In this document: positions 1-7,891 of the stretch, piece by piece
How the letters are laid out: each line of letters starts with the position of its first letter
Numbering within the stretch: the stretch's first letter is position 1
Origin: a virus
Lineage: Duplodnaviria; Heunggongvirae; Uroviricota; Caudoviricetes
Direction: 5' to 3' (one strand)
IMG/VR virus record: IMGVR_UViG_2619619133_000002
Location: 1-9,824 of that record
Length of the DNA stretch: 9,824 bases
Program-made: the position numbers and the translations under genes
Notes under the pieces: generated by a model
Databases searched by the model: none
Seen by the model: only the letters and a program-made list of their open reading frames with translations
What the model was told of the DNA's origin: nothing

Positions 1-9
1 GGGTGTAAT

Positions 10-447
10 ATGTTTTATAGTCCATCTTTAAACATTTTTGTGAATCCTGCACTTAAGGATGATTACATTAATGCAAATTCATGGCCAGATGATGCTCTGG
101 CTGTCAGTGATGATGTTTATAATGAATTTGCAATCAATACGCCTCCAGATGACAAAATTCGTGTTGCAGGAAAAAATGGATTACCCACATGGGCACTAAT
201 ACCTCCACCATCGCATGAAGAACTTATTCAACAGGCAGAATCAGAAAGGCAATTATTGCTTAATCAGGCCAACGAATACATGAACAGTAAGCAATGGCCC
301 GGTAAAGCCGCTATTGGTCGTCTGAAAGGTGATGAACTGGCGCAATATAATTTGTGGCTGGATTATCTGGACGCACTGGAGCTGATCGATACTTCCGGTG
401 CGCCAGATATTGAATGGCCTACGCCTCCGGCAGTTCAGGCCAGATGA
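10..447 (+). CDS. tfa: tail fibre assembly protein (lambda Tfa / Caudo_TAP-like), alternative copy inside the invertible segment
   Basis: ATG at 10 sits 1 nt after a frame-3 TAA (6-8) that closes an upstream ORF running off the window. The C-terminus ...[26 protein letters not shown] matches the conserved Tfa C-terminal motif (compare lambda Tfa ...VDTSTAPDIEWP, from memory). It converges on and overlaps the minus-strand tfa by 29 nt. Confidence 0.8.
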   Translation: MFYSPSLNIFVNPALKDDYINANSWPDDALAVSDDVYNEFAINTPPDDKIRVAGKNGLPTWALIPPPSHEELIQQAESERQLLLNQANEYMNSKQWPGKAAIGRLKGDELAQYNLWLDYLDALELIDTSGAPDIEWPTPPAVQAR

Positions 448-1024
448 CATCCGGCGCTGTGCTGGTATCTGTTGCCGTCACCGCGTCAATGTAATCCAGC
501 ACAGCGTTAAGGCGGGTTGTTTCTGCCTGCGTCAGCTTCCGTCCGGCCTGTAATTTCAGTTGAATCAGACTGATGGAGGCCATTGCAGTATCAATCAGCG
601 ACTGGCGCTGTGCTTCTGCTGCATCTACTGCTGCGCCGTGCTGTGCCTCGGTATCTGTCACCCATTTCTCACCATTCCATTCATCGTATGGCGTTAACGG
701 GGCGATAGTGGTTGTATTTTCAGGATAATCACCCGGAGCTGTGATTTCTTTCGATTCTCCTGTTTCGGTGCTATAGACGATTTCACCGCGATGATCTGGC
801 ACATATTCCCATGAATTTAAATCTACAGAGCGACAGATTGCATAACCAGCTTTATGTGTACCTGGTGCATCCAAACAAGAACATGCCGGGATACCGACGC
901 CGACAGCGAGATATTCAGTTGATGTAGAAATATATTCACGCGTTTCACCATCATAATTATAAATGATAATGTCTCCCGTTTTTATGGCAATGAGTTCACT
1001 ATTTAATACAGCTTTATTCATCAT
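419..1024 (-). CDS. tfa: tail fibre assembly protein (lambda Tfa / Caudo_TAP-like)
   Basis: 201 aa with Tfa-like blocks ([41 protein letters not shown]). The start codon overlaps the tail-fibre stop in an ATGA arrangement, suggesting translational coupling. Confidence 0.85.
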
Positions 1025-1806
1025 GCGGCCCTCACAATATAATTAAAGGCGATGTTACGTGGACGATTTTCATTTGCTGTTGGAACAACATTTGCCGCCG
1101 AGAAGTGAACATCTTGTCGGATTTTTCGGTCATTAGCGTATGTCATAGATACGTTGATGTTATTCCGGACTGAGGTACCTCCGTAAAAAGCACCACTCAC
1201 ACTTTGAACATCAACAATTGCATTTATTTCGCTGTTTACGCGCAACTGACCAAAACCGCCAGTAATGTTTCGAATAGCATCTCCTTGCGCTGAAAGCAGA
1301 GTTCGCCCACTATCCACACCACGTTCATCATCCCAGCCACGAATAAACTCACCGCGTAAATCTGGCAATTTATTTGTCGGATAAACTTTTGCCAGTTCCG
1401 GATACTCTTCGGCAGAAAAAGGCGCACCATTGCATTTCAGCCAGCCTGTTGGCGGAGTGGCTGAAGGCCACGGAACAGGCACACCAACGGGTAATGCCGA
1501 ACCTTCTCCCAAACCAAGGTTTTCGAGAGCCGTTTTCACGGTGCCATCCGATTTGATATCGCCAAACGGATTCTTGCGGCTTAACAGCAGCGCACGAAGC
1601 GCGGTAAGCAGCTGGTCGTGTTGCGCCTTCTCCAGACTAGCACCGGATGCCTCCACCACGCTGCAAAGCTCCTCCTGCAACATGTCAAAGTAGTCATCAT
1701 CCAGATCGGTAGCAGGCGTGCCAGTCTGGGGGTTACCACGGGTAAAACCGTTTTTACCCGCGCCGAACTTATCCTTCTGCGCGGTTTTCGTGTCTATACG
1801 ATGCAT
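1021..1806 (-). CDS. stf: short side tail fibre protein with a tail-collar-like C-terminal domain; N-terminal constant part joined to the C-terminal variable part at an invertase crossover site
   Basis: ATG at 1806 is preceded by GGAG and an in-frame TAA. The C-terminal region ([23 protein letters not shown]...[22 protein letters not shown]) looks like the phage tail collar / tail fibre tip family. Codons 93-101 (ALENLGLGE) are encoded by the putative crossover site. Confidence 0.75.
1504..1529. other. putative serine-invertase (Pin/Gin/Cin/Hin-type) crossover site embedded in the tail fibre gene
   Basis: 26-bp imperfect palindrome TTCTCCCAAACC-AA-GGTTTTCGAGAG; 9 of 12 half-site positions are symmetric. 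The AAACC-AA-GGTTT core resembles hix/gix/cix sites as recalled (e.g. hixL TTCTTGAAAACCAAGGTTTTTGATAA). Confidence 0.55.
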
Positions 1807-2617
1807 GGATTACTCCGGATACCGAACCGTTGAGCATCTCGATAACTTCCCGCCGCTTGTCGTAGCACGGCCCCTCAATGTTGTACCCGGCGGTGGTGAT
1901 GGCCCACATCAGTGGCTGACGTCGCGCGCCCATCCCGGTAAGCATCGTGGTATAAAGCGCATCGGTGGCGTGCTCGTGATATTCATCCACCACGGCACAG
2001 TGGGGTGATGAACCATCACCGGGGTTACCGATCAGCGGTTCAAACCGCGCGCCATCCTCCGGACGGTTCATGTTTGAGGCGTTAACCTCAATCCCGAACG
2101 CTTCCGTCAGCATGGGTGTGCGTTTACACATCAGTCGCGCCGGGCGAAAGACTTCCCACGCCTGTTTCTCTGTCGTGGCACCGGAATACACTTCCGCGCC
2201 AAACTCGTTATCACAGGCAAAACAATACAGGGCAACACCGGCAGAGATTGCCGATTTGCCGTTCTTACGGGGGATTTCGGTATACCCCTCCCTGAAGCGG
2301 CGCAGCCGGGAGCCTTTATTGACCCAGCCAAACGCACAGCAGATCACAAAGAGCTGCCACGGTTCCAGCGTGATGGGCATCCTCTTGAATGCCCACTCCC
2401 CCTTGGTGTGTGGCAACAGCTGAATAAATTTCGCGGCCCGTTCAGCCAGGTCCTTGTCGAAGCGGTAACGAAACGACTTACTTTTTTCCGCCATCAGGTC
2501 ATCAAGATGGCGCTGGCAGGCCTGAATCACAAACTGGCAGGCCACAATCTTTCCGCGCACGACATCACGGGCATACTGATTGGCAGCATTTACGTTGGGG
2601 TAAGATTTCCGGCTCAT
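1769..2617 (-). pseudogene. terL: terminase large subunit (HK97/Terminase_1-like), truncated: ATPase domain only
   Basis: Walker A-like PRKNGKS and Walker B-like AVVDEYHE are present. Only 282 aa are encoded, against roughly 550 aa or more expected; there is no nuclease domain. The frame ends 37 nt inside the next gene. ATG overlaps the terS stop (ATGA). Confidence 0.75.
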
Positions 2618-3654: not shown

Positions 3655-4413
3655 TTATTTTTTCTTCTTATTTAACTTATCTAAATTGACGGGATCTTTC
3701 CCTGTGGCAGCTAAACACCAAAAAGAATAACTCTTTTGCATGACATAGGTTCTAATTCTCTCTAATGTTTCATTATATTTTTTCTCAACAACCTGTATCG
3801 CATGTTCAAATAAATTAATCATATCAACATGCTCGTCCTCGACACCAATCATGCTCAGTTGTTTTCTATCTGTCACTGCTTGATAAAATGTTTTCCCATT
3901 TTTCCTTATTAGTAACAATGAAGTTTCTGCTGACTCATAGTCTTGGTTGCCGCTATGTGCTGCAAAATTATGCCTGTAGTTAATAATACAGTCATGCAAC
4001 CCAAAATATTCAGAATCAAGCCAATCACGCTCCATCTTTAACTTTCTCCCTTTAGCTTCAGAGAAAGCTTTACCATAAAACGTTAGGCTTGCCACAAATA
4101 ACGCTCTAATTTCACTTGATAAATCTAGATCAAGTATATTCCCGTATAACTTGCCATCTGTCCTTAATTCGTTTCTCCCTGCCAGTTCATTAGCTATTTG
4201 GTACCACTCTTTAGCACTTTTTAAGTCCCTATGAATTAGTGACAGTGAAGATGCTCTATCGGCAATACGCCCACTCAATTTTATGCGATCTACAATTTCA
4301 TTATTGAATGTATAAACCGCTTTAAATTCCCCCGTTTCGGAATCAATATAATATTCAACATCTAACCCTTCATATGATTCACACCCGGGACCTTCTAATT
4401 TTTTTCTTTTCAT
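3655..4413 (-). CDS. hypothetical protein in an AT-rich moron; contains an Rx5H motif (possible HEPN-like RNase)
   Basis: Long ORF in a sharply AT-rich island between Rz and HNH. ATG at 4413 is used here; the ORF track starts at an in-frame TTG at 4437. Motif NYRHNFAAH lies at 3955-3975. No family recognised by eye. Confidence 0.55.
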   Translation of the reverse strand: MKRKKLEGPGCESYEGLDVEYYIDSETGEFKAVYTFNNEIVDRIKLSGRIADRASSLSLIHRDLKSAKEWYQIANELAGRNELRTDGKLYGNILDLDLSSEIRALFVASLTFYGKAFSEAKGRKLKMERDWLDSEYFGLHDCIINYRHNFAAHSGNQDYESAETSLLLIRKNGKTFYQAVTDRKQLSMIGVEDEHVDMINLFEHAIQVVEKKYNETLERIRTYVMQKSYSFWCLAATGKDPVNLDKLNKKKK

Positions 4414-4494
4414 ATAGAATATCCATATACGTTTCAATTCTCAGTCAGCATAGTAGAAAAAAAAGATGTCCAGATCCATACATCGAAAGCAATT

Positions 4495-5437: not shown

Positions 5438-5764
5438 TTACTCCTTAGAGCCACCAAACTTATTACCGATTACTCTCATTGCAGCCCCACGAATAGCATC
5501 GACCCCGATCAGCCCAACGCCGCCACCAATGGCAACAGAAAGAGATTTAGGCCATCCGACATACTCAAGAGCGGATGCAAAAGTCAGCGTCAGAGCACCA
5601 CAGAGCAAAATCTCGAGCGTTTTTCGTTTCCAGCCACCACCACCGCCAAAATAGGCAATGCGCAAGCCAGCCATAACGATCGACATAATCACTGCGCCCA
5701 GCGGTGTGTCTCCACGCCACCAGCTCTGGACCAACTCCAGCCAGGTATTTGGGTTATGAGGCAT
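5438..5764 (-). CDS. S: holin, lambda S-like class I (three predicted TM segments)
   Basis: 108 aa with three hydrophobic segments and a G-rich loop (AYFGGGGGWKRKTL), comparable to the lambda/P22 S holin layout. Stop lies 3 nt from the R start. Confidence 0.8.
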   Translation of the reverse strand: MPHNPNTWLELVQSWWRGDTPLGAVIMSIVMAGLRIAYFGGGGGWKRKTLEILLCGALTLTFASALEYVGWPKSLSVAIGGGVGLIGVDAIRGAAMRVIGNKFGGSKE

Positions 5765-5902
5765 TTGTAGTTATCTCTCACCTCGCTGATACAGCAGGTG
5801 CAAATTGAGGGAACATCATGTACCGCAAATCAGAAGCGGAAACATCAAAGAAGCCGAACCGATGGAGAACTGCGGAATAGGCCAGGACCAACGAATCCCC
5901 AG

Positions 5903-5938
5903 CCACAGAAACGACAAAACCCGCTCGACGGCGGGTTT
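5903..5938 (-). terminator. putative Rho-independent terminator upstream of S (candidate tR'-like late terminator)
   Basis: Perfect 8-bp stem AAACCCGC / GCGGGTTT (5917-5924 and 5931-5938) with a 6-nt loop; the minus strand continues TTTTGTCGTTTCTG. Confidence 0.45.
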
Positions 5939-6015
5939 AAGCTGTGTGGCGAAGTAACCACTCTTAACAGATTACAATGTTTTTTGCGGACCGCGCTAAT
6001 GATTTCCTCTTTTTT

Positions 6016-6045
6016 TTGTTGTATTTTTCACACGGTTGCTAAAAT
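6016..6045 (+). promoter_or_regulatory. possible sigma70-like promoter for the cargo operon
   Basis: TTGTTG (6016-6021), 18-bp spacer, TAAAAT (6040-6045), about 15 nt before the ATG at 6061. Weak; by-eye only. Confidence 0.25.
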
Positions 6046-6060
6046 TATTTCGGATCGATA

Positions 6061-7002
6061 ATGAGTACAGAAAATAAGAATAAAACCAGGCGAGTGAGAG
6101 TTGGTTTTTTCACTGGTAATGGAAGCAAAAAAGATGGCACATCTGCTGCAAAACTAGCCTTTGAGCAAATGACCACAGCAGATACTGTAACTTTTCCAAT
6201 AACTTACACAACAGACACCCCAAATCGAGGGTTAAAGTTAGTTATTCTTCAAAAAGATACCACACTGCAATGTTACTTTGGTTACGTATCGTGGAGAAGG
6301 GAATGCCTACTACCGTTCATCGAGGATGCTACAGGTAGTGAGAGAACAATTCCTTTAAATGATAAAGATTCTGTAGTTGAAAGAACATATTTTATCTATT
6401 ACTACGAAACGGACTTATTAGCTATGACCCTCAACCATATAGGGCCCAAAGTAAATGATCTGGCATTCATTTTGTATAACAAAACTGATTTAAAAAGCGT
6501 CACTTTTGAAGCCATTTGGAAACAAGAGAGCATGAAGGAACTGCTTGAGGACGGAAATATCCTACGTAGTTTCGATCTTATAGTTGCTGCTCCAAGAAAC
6601 TTTAACAAAGCTAATTATAAGATTAAAAACCCTTTAGCTAATGAAATTATTGACATGGTTGTTGGTATGGGCGGGTCGCATCTAAGATTAAATATGCGAG
6701 GTCGGATTCGCCCGAAAAAACAAGGGTTTAACTATCTAAAAACTTCTGTCACCGATGCTATTAAGGAACTACTTGAACTTTTTCCAAAAGGTTCTGGAGG
6801 TCTAAAAATTAAAAAAATTGATGTAACAGAGCCATCCAATAGAACGCCCAAAAGTCTACTTGACCAAGTATTGGTCAGTACAAAGACAATCATTGTCAAA
6901 AGCGGTTATCCATCCGATTCTGATATCAGAACGGCGATGATATCTGCTAAAATTGATAACGCGAACTATCTTGCACAGTATGAGCTCGCTAGCAGAGACT
7001 AA
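6061..7002 (+). CDS. hypothetical protein, 313 aa, soluble; first gene of the AT-rich cargo operon
   Basis: Long ORF in an AT-rich island, on the opposite strand to all flanking phage genes. ATG is preceded by an in-frame TAA. No motif or family recognised by eye. Confidence 0.6.
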   Translation: MSTENKNKTRRVRVGFFTGNGSKKDGTSAAKLAFEQMTTADTVTFPITYTTDTPNRGLKLVILQKDTTLQCYFGYVSWRRECLLPFIEDATGSERTIPLNDKDSVVERTYFIYYYETDLLAMTLNHIGPKVNDLAFILYNKTDLKSVTFEAIWKQESMKELLEDGNILRSFDLIVAAPRNFNKANYKIKNPLANEIIDMVVGMGGSHLRLNMRGRIRPKKQGFNYLKTSVTDAIKELLELFPKGSGGLKIKKIDVTEPSNRTPKSLLDQVLVSTKTIIVKSGYPSDSDIRTAMISAKIDNANYLAQYELASRD

Positions 7003-7023
7003 TAACCAAGCATGGAGGACACA

Positions 7024-7473
7024 ATGAGAGAATTAGCCACTTTTCTCTGGAAATGCGTCCTCTGGATTCTGTTGACCTATGCAGCGACAAAACTGTTTAA
7101 ACCGATGAAGCATGCTGACGTACTCACAACAGCGGGGGTGCTCTCGACTATATCAGGCATCCTGTTTGGTTTTGTTCTGGCTGCAATATCTATATTTAGT
7201 AGTGCAAACAGCGATAAGGAAGGAGCAATTAATGCCCTTAAGCAAAACAACGTGTTACCAACTCTGGTAAATAGATTACTTTCAACAGGGTTAACTCTCA
7301 TCGTCGCATGTATATTTCCATTGATAGCGATGTTTCTACCTGATGATGTTATTGTTGCGGGCAAACCTATTGATTTCCTATTCATACTGTTAGGCTTATC
7401 CTCCCTTATAATTTCGCTATATACCTTCGGAAGGTGTTGGTTAGTGTTACGAAAAATCTTCCCCCACTTGTGA
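7024..7473 (+). CDS. small integral membrane protein, 3-4 predicted TM helices; second gene of the cargo operon
   Basis: ATG at 7024 has a perfect GGAGGA 6 nt upstream; the ORF track starts at ATG 7012. Four hydrophobic stretches (FLWKCVLWILLTYAA, GVLSTISGILFGFVLAAISIF, LLSTGLTLIVACIFPLIAMFL, IDFLFILLGLSSLIISLYTF). Starts 21 nt after the upstream gene. Confidence 0.6.
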   Translation: MRELATFLWKCVLWILLTYAATKLFKPMKHADVLTTAGVLSTISGILFGFVLAAISIFSSANSDKEGAINALKQNNVLPTLVNRLLSTGLTLIVACIFPLIAMFLPDDVIVAGKPIDFLFILLGLSSLIISLYTFGRCWLVLRKIFPHL

Positions 7474-7474
7474 C

Positions 7475-7502
7475 AGGTTGGCCTCATATGGGGCCAACCT
7501 GT
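7475..7502. other. perfect 10-bp inverted repeat (hairpin) between the convergent cargo operon and Q
   Basis: CAGGTTGGCC (7475-7484), 8-nt loop, GGCCAACCTG (7493-7502). No U-tract on either strand. Confidence 0.4.
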
Positions 7503-7508
7503 GCAACC

Positions 7509-7874
7509 CTAAGCGTCCATTTCAAGGTTAACATCCAACATTGAAAGGCAACCATCAATAAATCCTTCGGCTAGTTGTATTTCTATGCGTACCAATTTTT
7601 CATCCTTTCCACGCACCTTTGCAATCTTACGCTTGGATATTCTGTATAAATAATGTGCCACAAGCAGCGAGTGCTCATCTGGCTTTTTTTGCTTTAGACG
7701 AGCAAGACAACCTTCAATAATTAATGCATCACTATCTGAACAAGCCTGACGTGTTTTGCTTGTGTAGGGAAGAAGCCCCTTAAACCCAGCAGCTATAGGC
7801 GAATAGTCTACTCCAGAACTATCACTCGCCGCCCATGCTCCCCAACGCTCCAGAACCATCTGAATATCACGCAT
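7509..7874 (-). CDS. Q: late antiterminator Q (phage 82 / QuuD-type)
   Basis: MRDIQMVLERWGAWAA... matches the N-terminus of E. coli prophage QuuD-family Q proteins as recalled. ATG at 7874 has GGAG upstream; the ORF track begins one codon earlier at TTG. Confidence 0.85.
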   Translation of the reverse strand: MRDIQMVLERWGAWAASDSSGVDYSPIAAGFKGLLPYTSKTRQACSDSDALIIEGCLARLKQKKPDEHSLLVAHYLYRISKRKIAKVRGKDEKLVRIEIQLAEGFIDGCLSMLDVNLEMDA

Positions 7875-7891
7875 CAACTTTCTCCACCAAA

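What the first reader, a model, noticed from the sequence alone, without database searches (positions are those of the whole stretch)
5765..6060. Late regulatory region is displaced: a tR'-like terminator lies just upstream of S but no clear pR'/qut is found next to Q
In lambdoid phages pR', qut and tR' lie immediately downstream of Q. Here Q (7509-7874) is separated from S by the 1.5-kb antisense cargo operon. A good minus-strand terminator (stem 5917-5938 plus T-tract) sits about 150 nt upstream of S, consistent with tR'. pR' would then have to lie in roughly 5950-6060, back to back with the cargo operon promoter region, and I could not identify a convincing -35/-10 there. Either the cargo insertion separated Q from its target promoter or the lysis genes are no longer under Q control.
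Basis: partly seen in the sequence, partly recalled or inferred. Interest (0 to 1): 0.45.

Follow-up and report, generated by a model that had tools for sequence, protein, structure and literature searches.

The report
Late promoter cassette displaced by cargo
The phage's late-gene switch (promoter, probable antiterminator docking site and terminator) is intact just upstream of the lysis genes and has only been separated from its regulator gene Q by an inserted two-gene cargo, which is the usual layout in this phage family.

Summary
A minus-strand intrinsic terminator (stem 5938-5917) lies about 145 nt upstream of S. Q (7877-7509) is separated from it by a 1.5-kb antisense two-gene cargo. No consensus sigma-70 promoter scores in 5940-6070.

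Window 6015-5907 is a conserved ~100-nt module. In Stx phages with a 76%-identical Q, the same module starts within about 10 nt of the Q stop codon. Its size and order match the curated pR'-QBE-SDPE-tR' cassette of phage 21.

The module has these parts:
- an A-rich tract;
- an invariant 11-mer, CGCGGTCCGCA (5995-5985, contains a palindrome);
- a conserved TAnTnT -10 (TAATCT, 5974-5969);
- an invariant TGnTAAGnnTGG start region (5969-5958);
- the terminator.

Across 232 loci the palindrome tracks the Q sequence class without exception, in three classes. In 93% of these loci, 0.7-3.8 kb of almost always antisense cargo lies between Q and the module. E. coli K-12 DLP12 (quuD-nmpC-essD) and phage PA-2 have this layout.

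So the cargo did separate Q from its promoter, and Q very probably still acts on it in trans. Loss of Q control is unlikely. This is an ordinary arrangement for the family. The exact start site, the pause element and Q binding remain untested.

The parts
7509..7877 (-). Q antiterminator gene (122 aa from TTG 7877; ATG at 7874), window class of the PF06530 family
   Evidence: Pfam PF06530, E = 7.7e-52. PHROG 79, anti-termination protein Q-like. Distant match to the phage 21 Q structure 6p18, E = 0.002. 76% identical to the Q of phage 1720a-02, whose deletion abolishes Stx and phage production (PMC6328086).
7476..7506 (.). Strong hairpin between the convergent ends of Q and the cargo operon, with no U tract. 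It belongs to the cargo insert, not to a promoter.
   Evidence: Fold: -21.4 kcal/mol (minus strand, z = -3.3) and -27.1 kcal/mol (plus strand, z = -6.0). Homology to the cargo-less relative ends at about 7514, inside the last Q codons.
6061..7473 (+). Antisense two-gene cargo (313 aa, and 153 aa that is probably membrane-embedded) inserted between Q and its target module. The insert spans about 7513 to 6007.
   Evidence: ORFs. PHROG 7651 and 8552, function unknown. No Pfam family above the curated cut-off (only a sub-threshold DUF4064 match for the 153-aa protein) and no PADLOC hit. GC 0.35-0.44 against about 0.5 in the flanks. The same pair sits at the same junction in 17 fetched loci and in 73 complete E. 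coli genomes.
6016..6045 (+). Candidate cargo promoter (TTGTTG, 18 nt, TAAAAT), divergent from pR'
   Evidence: Read directly from the sequence. It scores 8/12, below the scan threshold. Inference only.
6003..6017 (-). A-rich tract upstream of the operator (UP-element-like). Left edge of the conserved module.
   Evidence: Positions -39 to -35 carry 1.0-1.6 bits across 68 unique modules, although the cargo upstream differs. In cargo-less phages this tract is the 3' end of Q.
5985..5995 (-). Invariant 11-mer CGCGGTCCGCA containing the palindrome GCGG-T-CCGC. Candidate Q-binding element; it occupies the -35 position.
   Evidence: About 2 bits per position. Fixed 16-nt distance to GnTAAG. Operator type follows Q class in 231 of 232 loci; the exception is disrupted. 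Single match in the window, 0 expected.
5969..5974 (-). -10 element TAATCT (family pattern TAnTnT)
   Evidence: A at position 2 and T at position 6 are invariant in 50 of 50 aligned unique modules, and in all 67 listed. The only variant is cAGTAT preceded by TGn. The middle positions vary.
5957..5968 (-). Invariant GTTAAGAGTGGT: start-site region (predicted start about 5963-5961) with a -10-like TAAGnnT resembling the phage 21 pause element TAAGCT
   Evidence: G0, T2, A3, A4, G5, T8 and G10 are invariant. Phage 21 annotation. Resemblance to lambda +1 to +18, AACGATGGGTTAATTCGC. The start site is not mapped.
5946..5961 (-). Possible 5' leader hairpin GUGGU-N6-GCCAC
   Evidence: Predicted in the minimum-energy fold. 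91% of cells pair, but there are few compensatory changes. Weak evidence.
5907..5938 (-). Intrinsic terminator tR' (stem 5938-5917 plus an interrupted T tract 5916-5907)
   Evidence: A hairpin plus T tract follows in 92 of 109 unique modules, ending 49-53 or 61-65 nt after GnTAAG, with varied stems and loops.
5765..5906 (-). Untranslated spacer between tR' and S
   Evidence: 95% identical to SfII, 87% to SfIV and about 73% to PA-2/DLP12-type phages over the stretches matched upstream of their holins. In relatives the sequence after the terminator can be replaced by sense-strand cargo.
5438..5764 (-). S holin, first late gene, followed by R (5434-4952) and Rz (5007-4495)
   Evidence: PF05106, E = 5.7e-25; Rz PF03245, E = 2.1e-40.

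Best explanation
Window 6015-5907 (minus strand) is the late regulatory cassette of this prophage. It comprises a sigma-70 promoter (pR'), a Q-class-specific operator, a short initial transcribed region and an intrinsic terminator (tR'), directly upstream of S-R-Rz.

Proposed mechanism:
1. Without Q, RNA polymerase starts at about 5962 and stops at about 5910, making an RNA of about 50 nt.
2. Q, made from 7877-7509, binds the palindrome at 5995-5985 and loads onto the polymerase at the promoter-proximal region.
3. The loaded polymerase reads through tR' into the lysis and packaging genes.

Q is a diffusible protein that recognises DNA at the promoter, so the 1.5-kb antisense cargo between the Q stop codon and the cassette does not break the circuit.

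Shown: the homology, position, conservation and terminator of the module, and the class-for-class match between Q and operator.
Inferred: the start site, the pause element, Q binding and Q-dependent readthrough.
For: 1. Window 6015-5916 is 86-88% identical to the 100 nt that begin within the last 10 nt of the Q gene in phage 1720a-02 and in Stx2a phages.

2. The curated phage 21 record places -35, QBE, -10, start, SDPE and terminator within about 90 nt after Q, giving an RNA of about 50 nt. The size and order are the same as here.

3. Of 80 fetched IMG/VR loci encoding this Q class, 75 (plus 1720a-02, Stx2_14040, SfIV and the window) carry one module downstream on the Q strand. Of the five without one, two have contigs that end at the Q stop, two carry slightly variant copies that the pattern missed, and one is unexplained. 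The -10 key positions, the 11-mer and TGnTAAGnnTGG are invariant while the flanks vary.

4. Operator type follows Q class: 79/79 GCGGTCCGC-type, 74/74 GCGTACGC, 78/79 ACGTACGT. The adjoining 58-nt block is shared almost unchanged between classes, so the class boundary falls just beside the operator.

5. A terminator follows in 92 of 109 unique modules.

6. The module with a window-class Q upstream recurs in nine species-representative genomes of Enterobacterales.

7. Deleting the 76%-identical Q of 1720a-02, with primers that leave the module in place, abolishes Stx and phage production (PMC6328086). The Q of DLP12 is reported to control the DLP12 lysis operon, which lies across the nmpC insertion (PMC7918800 citing Rueggeberg 2013).
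Against: - No start site, pause or Q footprint has been mapped for this module. My searches of three E. coli K-12 transcript-end data sets found nothing at the DLP12 copy.
- There is no recognisable -35 (best is TTAGCG at a 19-nt spacing), and no promoter is called by the consensus scan.
- If the -10 is TAATCT, the conserved -10-like TAAGAGT overlaps the start site rather than lying at +1 to +8 as in lambda and phage 21. The pause geometry is therefore unresolved.
- The Q-operator match could partly reflect physical linkage, if cargo is exchanged by recombination within Q and the module.
- The operator is a palindrome, whereas the only solved relative (Q21) binds a direct repeat.
- This prophage is a remnant, so the circuit may be intact but idle.
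Confidence: 0.8

Rival explanations
1. The module is primarily a gene for a small regulatory RNA: a constitutive ~50-nt transcript acting in trans, as StxS does in Stx phages. Its conservation would reflect that RNA, not Q loading.
For: The transcribed block is invariant over 58 nt between phages whose flanks are about 70% identical. A 5' hairpin is predicted. An inverted repeat shows one compensatory change. Short terminated prophage transcripts can act as sRNAs (StxS and HnrS, mentioned in PMC13502914).
Against: The strongest class-specific signal lies upstream of the start, in the operator, and follows Q. The module sits exactly where pR' sits relative to Q in cargo-less phages. The two roles do not exclude each other. 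There is no Rfam match.
Confidence: 0.1
2. The lysis genes are no longer under Q control. The module is a relic, and S-R-Rz are expressed, if at all, from another promoter. A sigma-E promoter has been reported for DLP12.
For: The prophage is deleted for head and tail genes. The DLP12 lysis cassette is reported to respond to RpoE and Hha as well as to Q (PMC7918800). No consensus promoter is scored.
Against: Every conserved position of the module is intact in the window and identical to that of other loci. Q is full length and 100% identical in several other contigs. The tR' terminator would still block any upstream transcription unless Q is present.
Confidence: 0.08
3. The palindrome at 5995-5985 is the operator of a regulator other than Q (for example a repressor of late transcription). 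It tracks Q only because the two are inherited together.
For: Perfect dyad symmetry is typical of dimeric repressors. Q21 binds direct repeats, not a palindrome. Linkage could explain the association.
Against: No other regulator gene is consistently linked. The genes between Q and the module fall into about 62 unrelated protein clusters. The element lies between the -35 and -10 positions, where the QBEs of lambda and phage 21 lie. The association has no exception in 231 intact loci.
Confidence: 0.12
4. pR' lies next to Q (7474-7508, or inside the 3' end of Q), and late transcription runs 1.5 kb antisense through the cargo before reaching tR'.
For: Only the textbook position of pR'.
Against: That interval is a hairpin belonging to the insert. 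It has no match to the module. The Q-adjacent module of cargo-less relatives is found here at 6015-5907 instead.
Confidence: 0.02

Closest known systems
Phage 21 late regulatory cassette (pR'21, QBE, SDPE, terminator; GenBank OL657228 annotation; Yin, Kaelber and Ebright 2019)
   Same: Q of the same Pfam family (PF06530). The order is -35 position, protein-binding element, -10, start, -10-like TAAG element, terminator. The whole cassette is about 90-100 nt and the terminated RNA about 50 nt.
   Different: Q is only distantly related (E = 0.002). The binding element here is a palindrome, not two 8-bp direct repeats. There is no TTGACA -35. The distance from the -10 to the TAAG element is 8-9 nt instead of 13. 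Here the cassette is 1.5 kb from Q.
E. coli K-12 DLP12 (quuD - nmpC - essD) and phage PA-2 (Q - lc - S)
   Same: Identical layout: Q, an antisense cargo gene, then the same module (58-nt block with one C/T difference) about 170 nt upstream of the holin. The Q of DLP12 is reported to control the DLP12 lysis operon.
   Different: Different Q class (50% identity) with operator ACGTACGT. The cargo is a porin. The holin family is different.
Stx phages 1720a-02 and Stx2_14040
   Same: Q 76% identical. Same operator (one base differs in Stx2_14040), same start region and terminator. Q is experimentally required for late gene (stx) expression.
   Different: The module directly abuts Q. Cargo (orf, methylase, tRNAs, stx) lies downstream of tR' in the sense orientation.
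Lambda pR'-qut-tR' (6S RNA)
   Same: Constitutive promoter, promoter-proximal -10-like element, terminator before S. The initial transcribed sequence AACGATGGGTTAATTCGC resembles AAGAGTGGTTACTTCGC here.
   Different: Unrelated Q family (PF03589). 194-nt RNA. Good -35. The cassette is adjacent to Q.
Shigella phages SfII and SfIV
   Same: Q (in SfII), a two-gene antisense cargo, the module and the holin, with 87-95% identity over the module-to-S stretch matched.
   Different: Different cargo (SfII carries PADLOC candidate PDC-M53). The SfII Q is of another class with operator GCGTACGC.

Membership tests
Q-dependent late regulatory cassette of lambdoid phages (pR'-QBE-SDPE-tR') | A Q antiterminator of a recognised Q family is encoded in the element | tested here: met
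   PF06530, E = 7.7e-52. PHROG 79. Q21 structure, E = 0.002.
Q-dependent late regulatory cassette of lambdoid phages (pR'-QBE-SDPE-tR') | The cassette lies immediately downstream of Q | tested here: not met
   In the window it lies 1.5 kb from the Q stop. The same module is Q-adjacent in 17 of 79 loci of this class, so the position has been changed by insertion.
Q-dependent late regulatory cassette of lambdoid phages (pR'-QBE-SDPE-tR') | A sigma-70 promoter with a -10 element | tested here: inconclusive
   A TAnTnT hexamer with invariant A2 and T6 at a fixed position. No recognisable -35 and no hit in the consensus scan. The start is not mapped.
Q-dependent late regulatory cassette of lambdoid phages (pR'-QBE-SDPE-tR') | A Q-binding element in the promoter, specific for the cognate Q | tested here: inconclusive
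   The class-specific palindrome follows Q class in 231 of 232 loci. Binding itself cannot be tested with these tools.
Q-dependent late regulatory cassette of lambdoid phages (pR'-QBE-SDPE-tR') | A sigma-dependent pause element (-10-like) in the initial transcribed region | tested here: inconclusive
   The invariant TAAGnnT resembles phage 21 TAAGCT and lambda AACGAT. It overlaps the predicted start if the -10 is TAATCT.
Q-dependent late regulatory cassette of lambdoid phages (pR'-QBE-SDPE-tR') | An intrinsic terminator a short distance downstream, ahead of the late genes on the same strand | tested here: met
   Conserved in 92 of 109 unique modules. S-R-Rz follow.
Q-dependent late regulatory cassette of lambdoid phages (pR'-QBE-SDPE-tR') | Readthrough of the terminator depends on Q | not testable with these tools
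   Indirect evidence only: a Q deletion in 1720a-02 abolishes Stx, and the Q of DLP12 is reported to control the lysis cassette.
Phage 21-type QBE (two direct 8-bp repeats ATTGAGCA/AATGAGCA) | A direct repeat of the Q21 subsite between -35 and -10 | tested here: not met
   No such repeat in 6060-5960. The conserved element is a palindrome. Q is only about 30% identical to Q21 over 80 residues.

The most novel reading that the evidence does not exclude
Two linked possibilities.

(a) The QuuD-like branch of the Q21 family may recognise a short, perfectly symmetric operator: GCGG-T-CCGC, GCGTACGC or ACGTACGT, changing symmetrically with Q class. That would mean a head-to-head Q dimer at the promoter, unlike the head-to-tail pair seen for Q21.

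(b) Because Q acts in trans, the Q|pR' junction may have become a dedicated slot for lysogen-expressed, antisense cargo. This sample holds about 62 protein clusters there, several of them candidate defence systems, while a second slot just after tR' takes sense, Q-dependent cargo. The window's 313-aa plus 153-aa pair would then be an uncharacterised defence or exclusion system.
Probability: 0.4. Interest if true: 0.55.

Novelty: new member of a known kind. Interest (0 to 1): 0.3.

Why it matters
For annotation, it shows where the late promoter of a very common group of enterobacterial prophages lies. The group includes E. coli K-12 DLP12 and some Stx phages. It also shows that a gap between Q and S does not mean the lysis or toxin genes have lost Q control.

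It gives a simple sequence signature, CGCGGTCCGCA-N10-TAnnnT-GnTAAGnnTGG, for locating pR' and for separating two kinds of cargo:
- upstream of pR': antisense, and probably expressed independently of Q from its own promoter in the lysogen;
- downstream of tR': sense, Q-dependent, as for stx.

The three operator classes are a ready-made specificity-swap experiment for a Q subfamily whose DNA recognition has not been described in anything I could find.

Tried and rejected
- A Q-proximal pR' (7474-7508): rejected. The interval is a hairpin belonging to the insert and has no similarity to the module.
- Direct transfer of the phage 21 QBE/SDPE coordinates: rejected. Q is too distant and the spacings differ.
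- Alternative -10 hexamers (window TGTAAT 5976-5971; extended -10 TGtTAAGAG; hexamers in the A/T tract): rejected as the main -10, because they are not conserved in register or lack T at -7.
- Published start sites or 3' ends for the K-12 DLP12 copy (about 577,205-577,290): nothing found in the three supplements that are held. The Rueggeberg 2013 and 2015 and Thomason 2015 papers are not held.
- Rfam: no family.
- HnrS sRNA paper: not related to this module.
- RNA structure of the leader: only weak covariation support.
- Similarity of the window cargo to the SfII cargo PDC-M53: none.
- Caveat on method: the locus filter required A at -5 and T at -1. The invariance of these two positions therefore rests on the unfiltered sets. 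The four window-class loci that one search dropped either had contigs ending at Q or differed elsewhere in the module.

Full report
**What is in the window.**
The minus strand carries a lambdoid late region:
- KilA-N protein, 9686-8889
- DUF968 protein, 8887-7892
- Q, 7877-7509 (PF06530, E = 7.7e-52)
- S holin, 5764-5438
- R, 5434-4952
- Rz, 5007-4495
- a low-GC ORF, an HNH endonuclease and TerS
- a TerL fragment that abuts tail-fibre genes

Between Q and S lie two plus-strand ORFs, 6061-7002 (313 aa) and 7012-7473 (153 aa). Their GC content is 0.35-0.44. The 296-nt non-coding stretch of the finding follows.

**Checking the observation.**
The terminator is found by the scan (stem 5938-5917) and folds at -12.8 kcal/mol. 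No consensus sigma-70 site is scored in 5940-6070 on either strand. The 35 nt between Q and the cargo end form a strong hairpin without a U tract.

**Where the stretch comes from.**
A BLAST search against phage records split the stretch into informative pieces.
- Window 6015-5916 is 86-88% identical to 100 nt that begin inside the last 10 nt of the Q gene of phage 1720a-02 and of Stx2a-converting phages. Their Q is 76% identical to the window's.
- The same block, together with the spacer down to S, is 87-95% identical to Shigella phages SfIV and SfII over the stretches matched. There it also follows a two-gene antisense cargo.
- A 200-nt core is about 73% identical to PA-2-like phages and to E. 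coli K-12 DLP12. There it lies between an antisense porin gene (lc/nmpC/ompD) and the holin.

In the seven-way alignment, TGTTAAGAGTGGTTACTTCG(C/T)CACACAGCTTAAACCCGCCGTCGAGCGGGTTTT is nearly invariant, while the flanks are about 70% identical. Compared with 1720a-02, homology on the Q side stops at about 7514, after the codons for LEMD. It resumes at about 6007. The cargo insert, with its own hairpin and promoter region, therefore spans about 7513-6007.

**Comparison with a curated cassette.**
The GenBank record of phage 21 (OL657228) annotates these features:
- Q stop codon
- -35 TTGACA, 6 nt after the Q stop
- QBE (ATTGAGCA AATGAGCA)
- -10 AACACT
- transcription start
- SDPE TAAGCTG at +2 to +8
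- a terminator that ends 91 nt after the Q stop

In 1720a-02 the present module occupies the same about 95 nt after Q. Lambda pR' was re-read. Its initial transcribed sequence, AACGATGGGTTAATTCGC, resembles AAGAGTGGTTACTTCGC here.

**Anatomy from 250 related loci.**
I fetched 80 IMG/VR loci for each of three Q classes: the window class, the SfII class and the QuuD class.

Of the 80 window-class loci, 75 contain one module downstream of Q on the same strand. So do 1720a-02, Stx2_14040, SfIV and the window itself. Of the five without one, two have contigs that end at the Q stop, two carry slightly variant copies that the pattern missed, and one is unexplained.

The conservation profile over 68 unique window-class modules shows these elements:
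- an A tract (-39 to -35)
- T-30 and A-29
- an 11-mer, CGCGGTCCGCA (-27 to -17, about 2 bits per position)
- a W4 tract that is either AAAA or TTTT
- a hexamer TAnTnT (-6 to -1; A-5 and T-1 invariant, middle positions variable)
- G-n-TAAG-nn-T-G-G (invariant)

In window coordinates the operator is 5995-5985, the -10 (TAATCT) is 5974-5969 and the invariant block starts at 5968. The full pattern occurs once in the window, against 0 expected in shuffles.

A hairpin plus T tract follows in 92 of 109 unique modules. It ends 49-53 or 61-65 nt after the G, and the stems and loops vary.

A -10 at 5974-5969 predicts a start at about 5963-5961 and an RNA of about 50 nt.

**Link to Q.**
The element at -27 to -17 depends on the Q class:

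| Q class | Operator | Loci |
|---|---|---|
| window | nGCGGTCCGCA | 79/79 (four variants differ by one base) |
| SfII | A[CT]GCGTACGCA | 74/74 |
| QuuD | TTACGTACGTA | 78/79 (the exception is disrupted) |

All three cores are perfect palindromes: GCGG-T-CCGC, GCGTACGC and ACGTACGT. GCGTACGC and ACGTACGT differ by symmetric changes at both ends.

The helix-turn-helix-like segment of Q also differs by class: K[DS]EK..RIE.Q in the window class against CSDG.I.K.LQ in the other two. The 58-nt block just downstream is almost identical across classes. The class boundary therefore falls beside the operator.

This is what a cognate Q-binding element would look like. Linkage could contribute, and binding is untested.

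**How usual the split is.**
The distance from the Q stop to the module varies by class:
- Window class: 8-38 nt in 17 of 79 loci, and 0.7-2.25 kb in the other 62.
- SfII class: at least 1.3 kb in all 74 loci.
- QuuD class: at least 1.67 kb in all 79 loci.

Of 350 ORFs lying between Q and the module, 341 are antisense to Q. They fall into 62 protein clusters. Some match PADLOC candidates: PDC-M53, PDC-S42, PDC-S20 (PifA-like), and an OLD/AriA-like ATPase.

In E. coli strain 1283 the same Q, cargo and module are followed by a sense-strand ORF and a DNA methyltransferase before S, directly after the terminator. In Stx phages the methylase, tRNA genes and stx occupy that position. There are therefore two cargo slots, one upstream of pR' (antisense) and one downstream of tR' (sense).

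The module pattern is present in 11 species-representative genomes, ten from nine genera of Enterobacterales and one labelled Actinomycetes (probably contamination). Nine of the 11 also show a window-class Q upstream within the fetched stretch.

**Experimental anchors from papers.**
- In phage 1720a-02, deleting exactly this kind of Q abolished Stx2 and phage production. The primer arms end at the module, so the module was left in place (PMC6328086).
- The DLP12 lysis operon is stated to be controlled by the prophage Q-type antiterminator (PMC7918800 citing Rueggeberg et al. 2013). That is a case of Q acting across an nmpC (plus IS5) insertion.
- Q21 binds its QBE in the promoter and loads onto a sigma-dependent paused complex (bioRxiv 10.1101/651190).

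**What remains open.**
- The -35 is not recognisable, because the palindrome sits at that position.
- The conserved -10-like TAAGnnT lies only 8-9 nt after the start of the -10 hexamer, against 12-13 nt in lambda and phage 21. Its role as a pause element is therefore uncertain.
- The inverted repeat TGnTAAG...CTTAn'C shows A/T to T/A covariation: 9 of 9 modules with n = A have n' = T, and 69 of 71 with n = T have n' = A. Its 5' arm would lie upstream of the predicted start. The formal pair count gave only weak support.
- No mapped transcript ends could be found.

**Verdict.**
The cargo did separate Q from pR', but the cassette is intact and of the type that goes with this Q. The arrangement is the norm for the family. 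It is a new member of a known kind, of modest interest.

Two things would reward follow-up: the symmetric, class-specific operator, and the use of the Q|pR' junction as an antisense cargo slot.

Noticed in passing
window 6061-7473 (+): The cargo pair is a 313-aa protein (PHROG 7651) and a 153-aa probable membrane protein (PHROG 8552). Neither matches a Pfam family above the curated cut-off (the 153-aa protein has only a sub-threshold DUF4064 match), and neither has a PADLOC match. The same junction in relatives holds PADLOC candidate systems and porins, so this pair is a candidate lysogen-expressed defence or exclusion system.
   Followed up: partly
L001-L250, interval between Q and the module: 341 of 350 cargo ORFs in this interval are antisense to the late operon. 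They fall into about 62 protein clusters. The junction behaves as a hotspot for antisense cargo.
   Followed up: partly
L251 2400-3990; L001 2600-5100: A second cargo slot begins right after the tR' hairpin and holds sense-strand genes (a 95-aa ORF and a DNA methyltransferase; in Stx phages also tRNAs and stx). The recombination junction lies within or just after the terminator loop.
   Followed up: partly
window 5969-5963 and about 5941-5935 (-): The inverted repeat TGnTAAG...CTTAn'C shows A/T to T/A covariation across 86 unique modules (9/9 and 69/71). The 5' arm would lie upstream of the predicted start site, so an RNA helix does not obviously explain it.
   Followed up: partly
window 7476-7506: An 11-13-bp perfect hairpin lies between the convergent stop codons of Q and the cargo operon, with no U tract on either strand (-21 and -27 kcal/mol). 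It is part of the cargo insert.
   Followed up: partly
window 5981-5984 (-): The four bases after the operator are either AAAA or TTTT, in roughly equal numbers of modules, and almost never mixed with G or C.
   Followed up: no
window 3655-4437 (-): A low-GC (about 0.35) 260-aa ORF (PHROG 8440, unknown function, no Pfam or PADLOC hit) lies between Rz and the HNH/terminase genes. It may be another cargo gene, in the sense orientation.
   Followed up: no
window 1-2617: The prophage is a remnant. Only the ATPase domain of TerL is left (1769-2617), and it abuts the Collar-domain C-terminus of a tail fibre (1021-1806). Two tail-fibre-assembly genes face each other (419-1024 on the minus strand, 10-447 on the plus strand), as at invertible tail-fibre segments.
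   Followed up: partly
L125 (QuuD-class locus), operator position: The palindrome is replaced by unrelated sequence (GGCAGCATCAC), and the distance from Q is 2.4 kb. This suggests an insertion that disrupts the operator.
   Followed up: no
L005 1730-1750 (phage PA-2 record J02580): The 1986 GenBank record annotates a CRP-binding site over the inner GTGG...CAC repeat of the module. The match to the CRP consensus is partial.
   Followed up: no
L026, L041, L049, L081 and similar loci, about 60-110 nt after GnTAAG: Many modules of the more divergent variant (GTGGTTTCTACGCCACGGACTTAAAACG...) carry two tandem intrinsic terminators after the start region.
   Followed up: no
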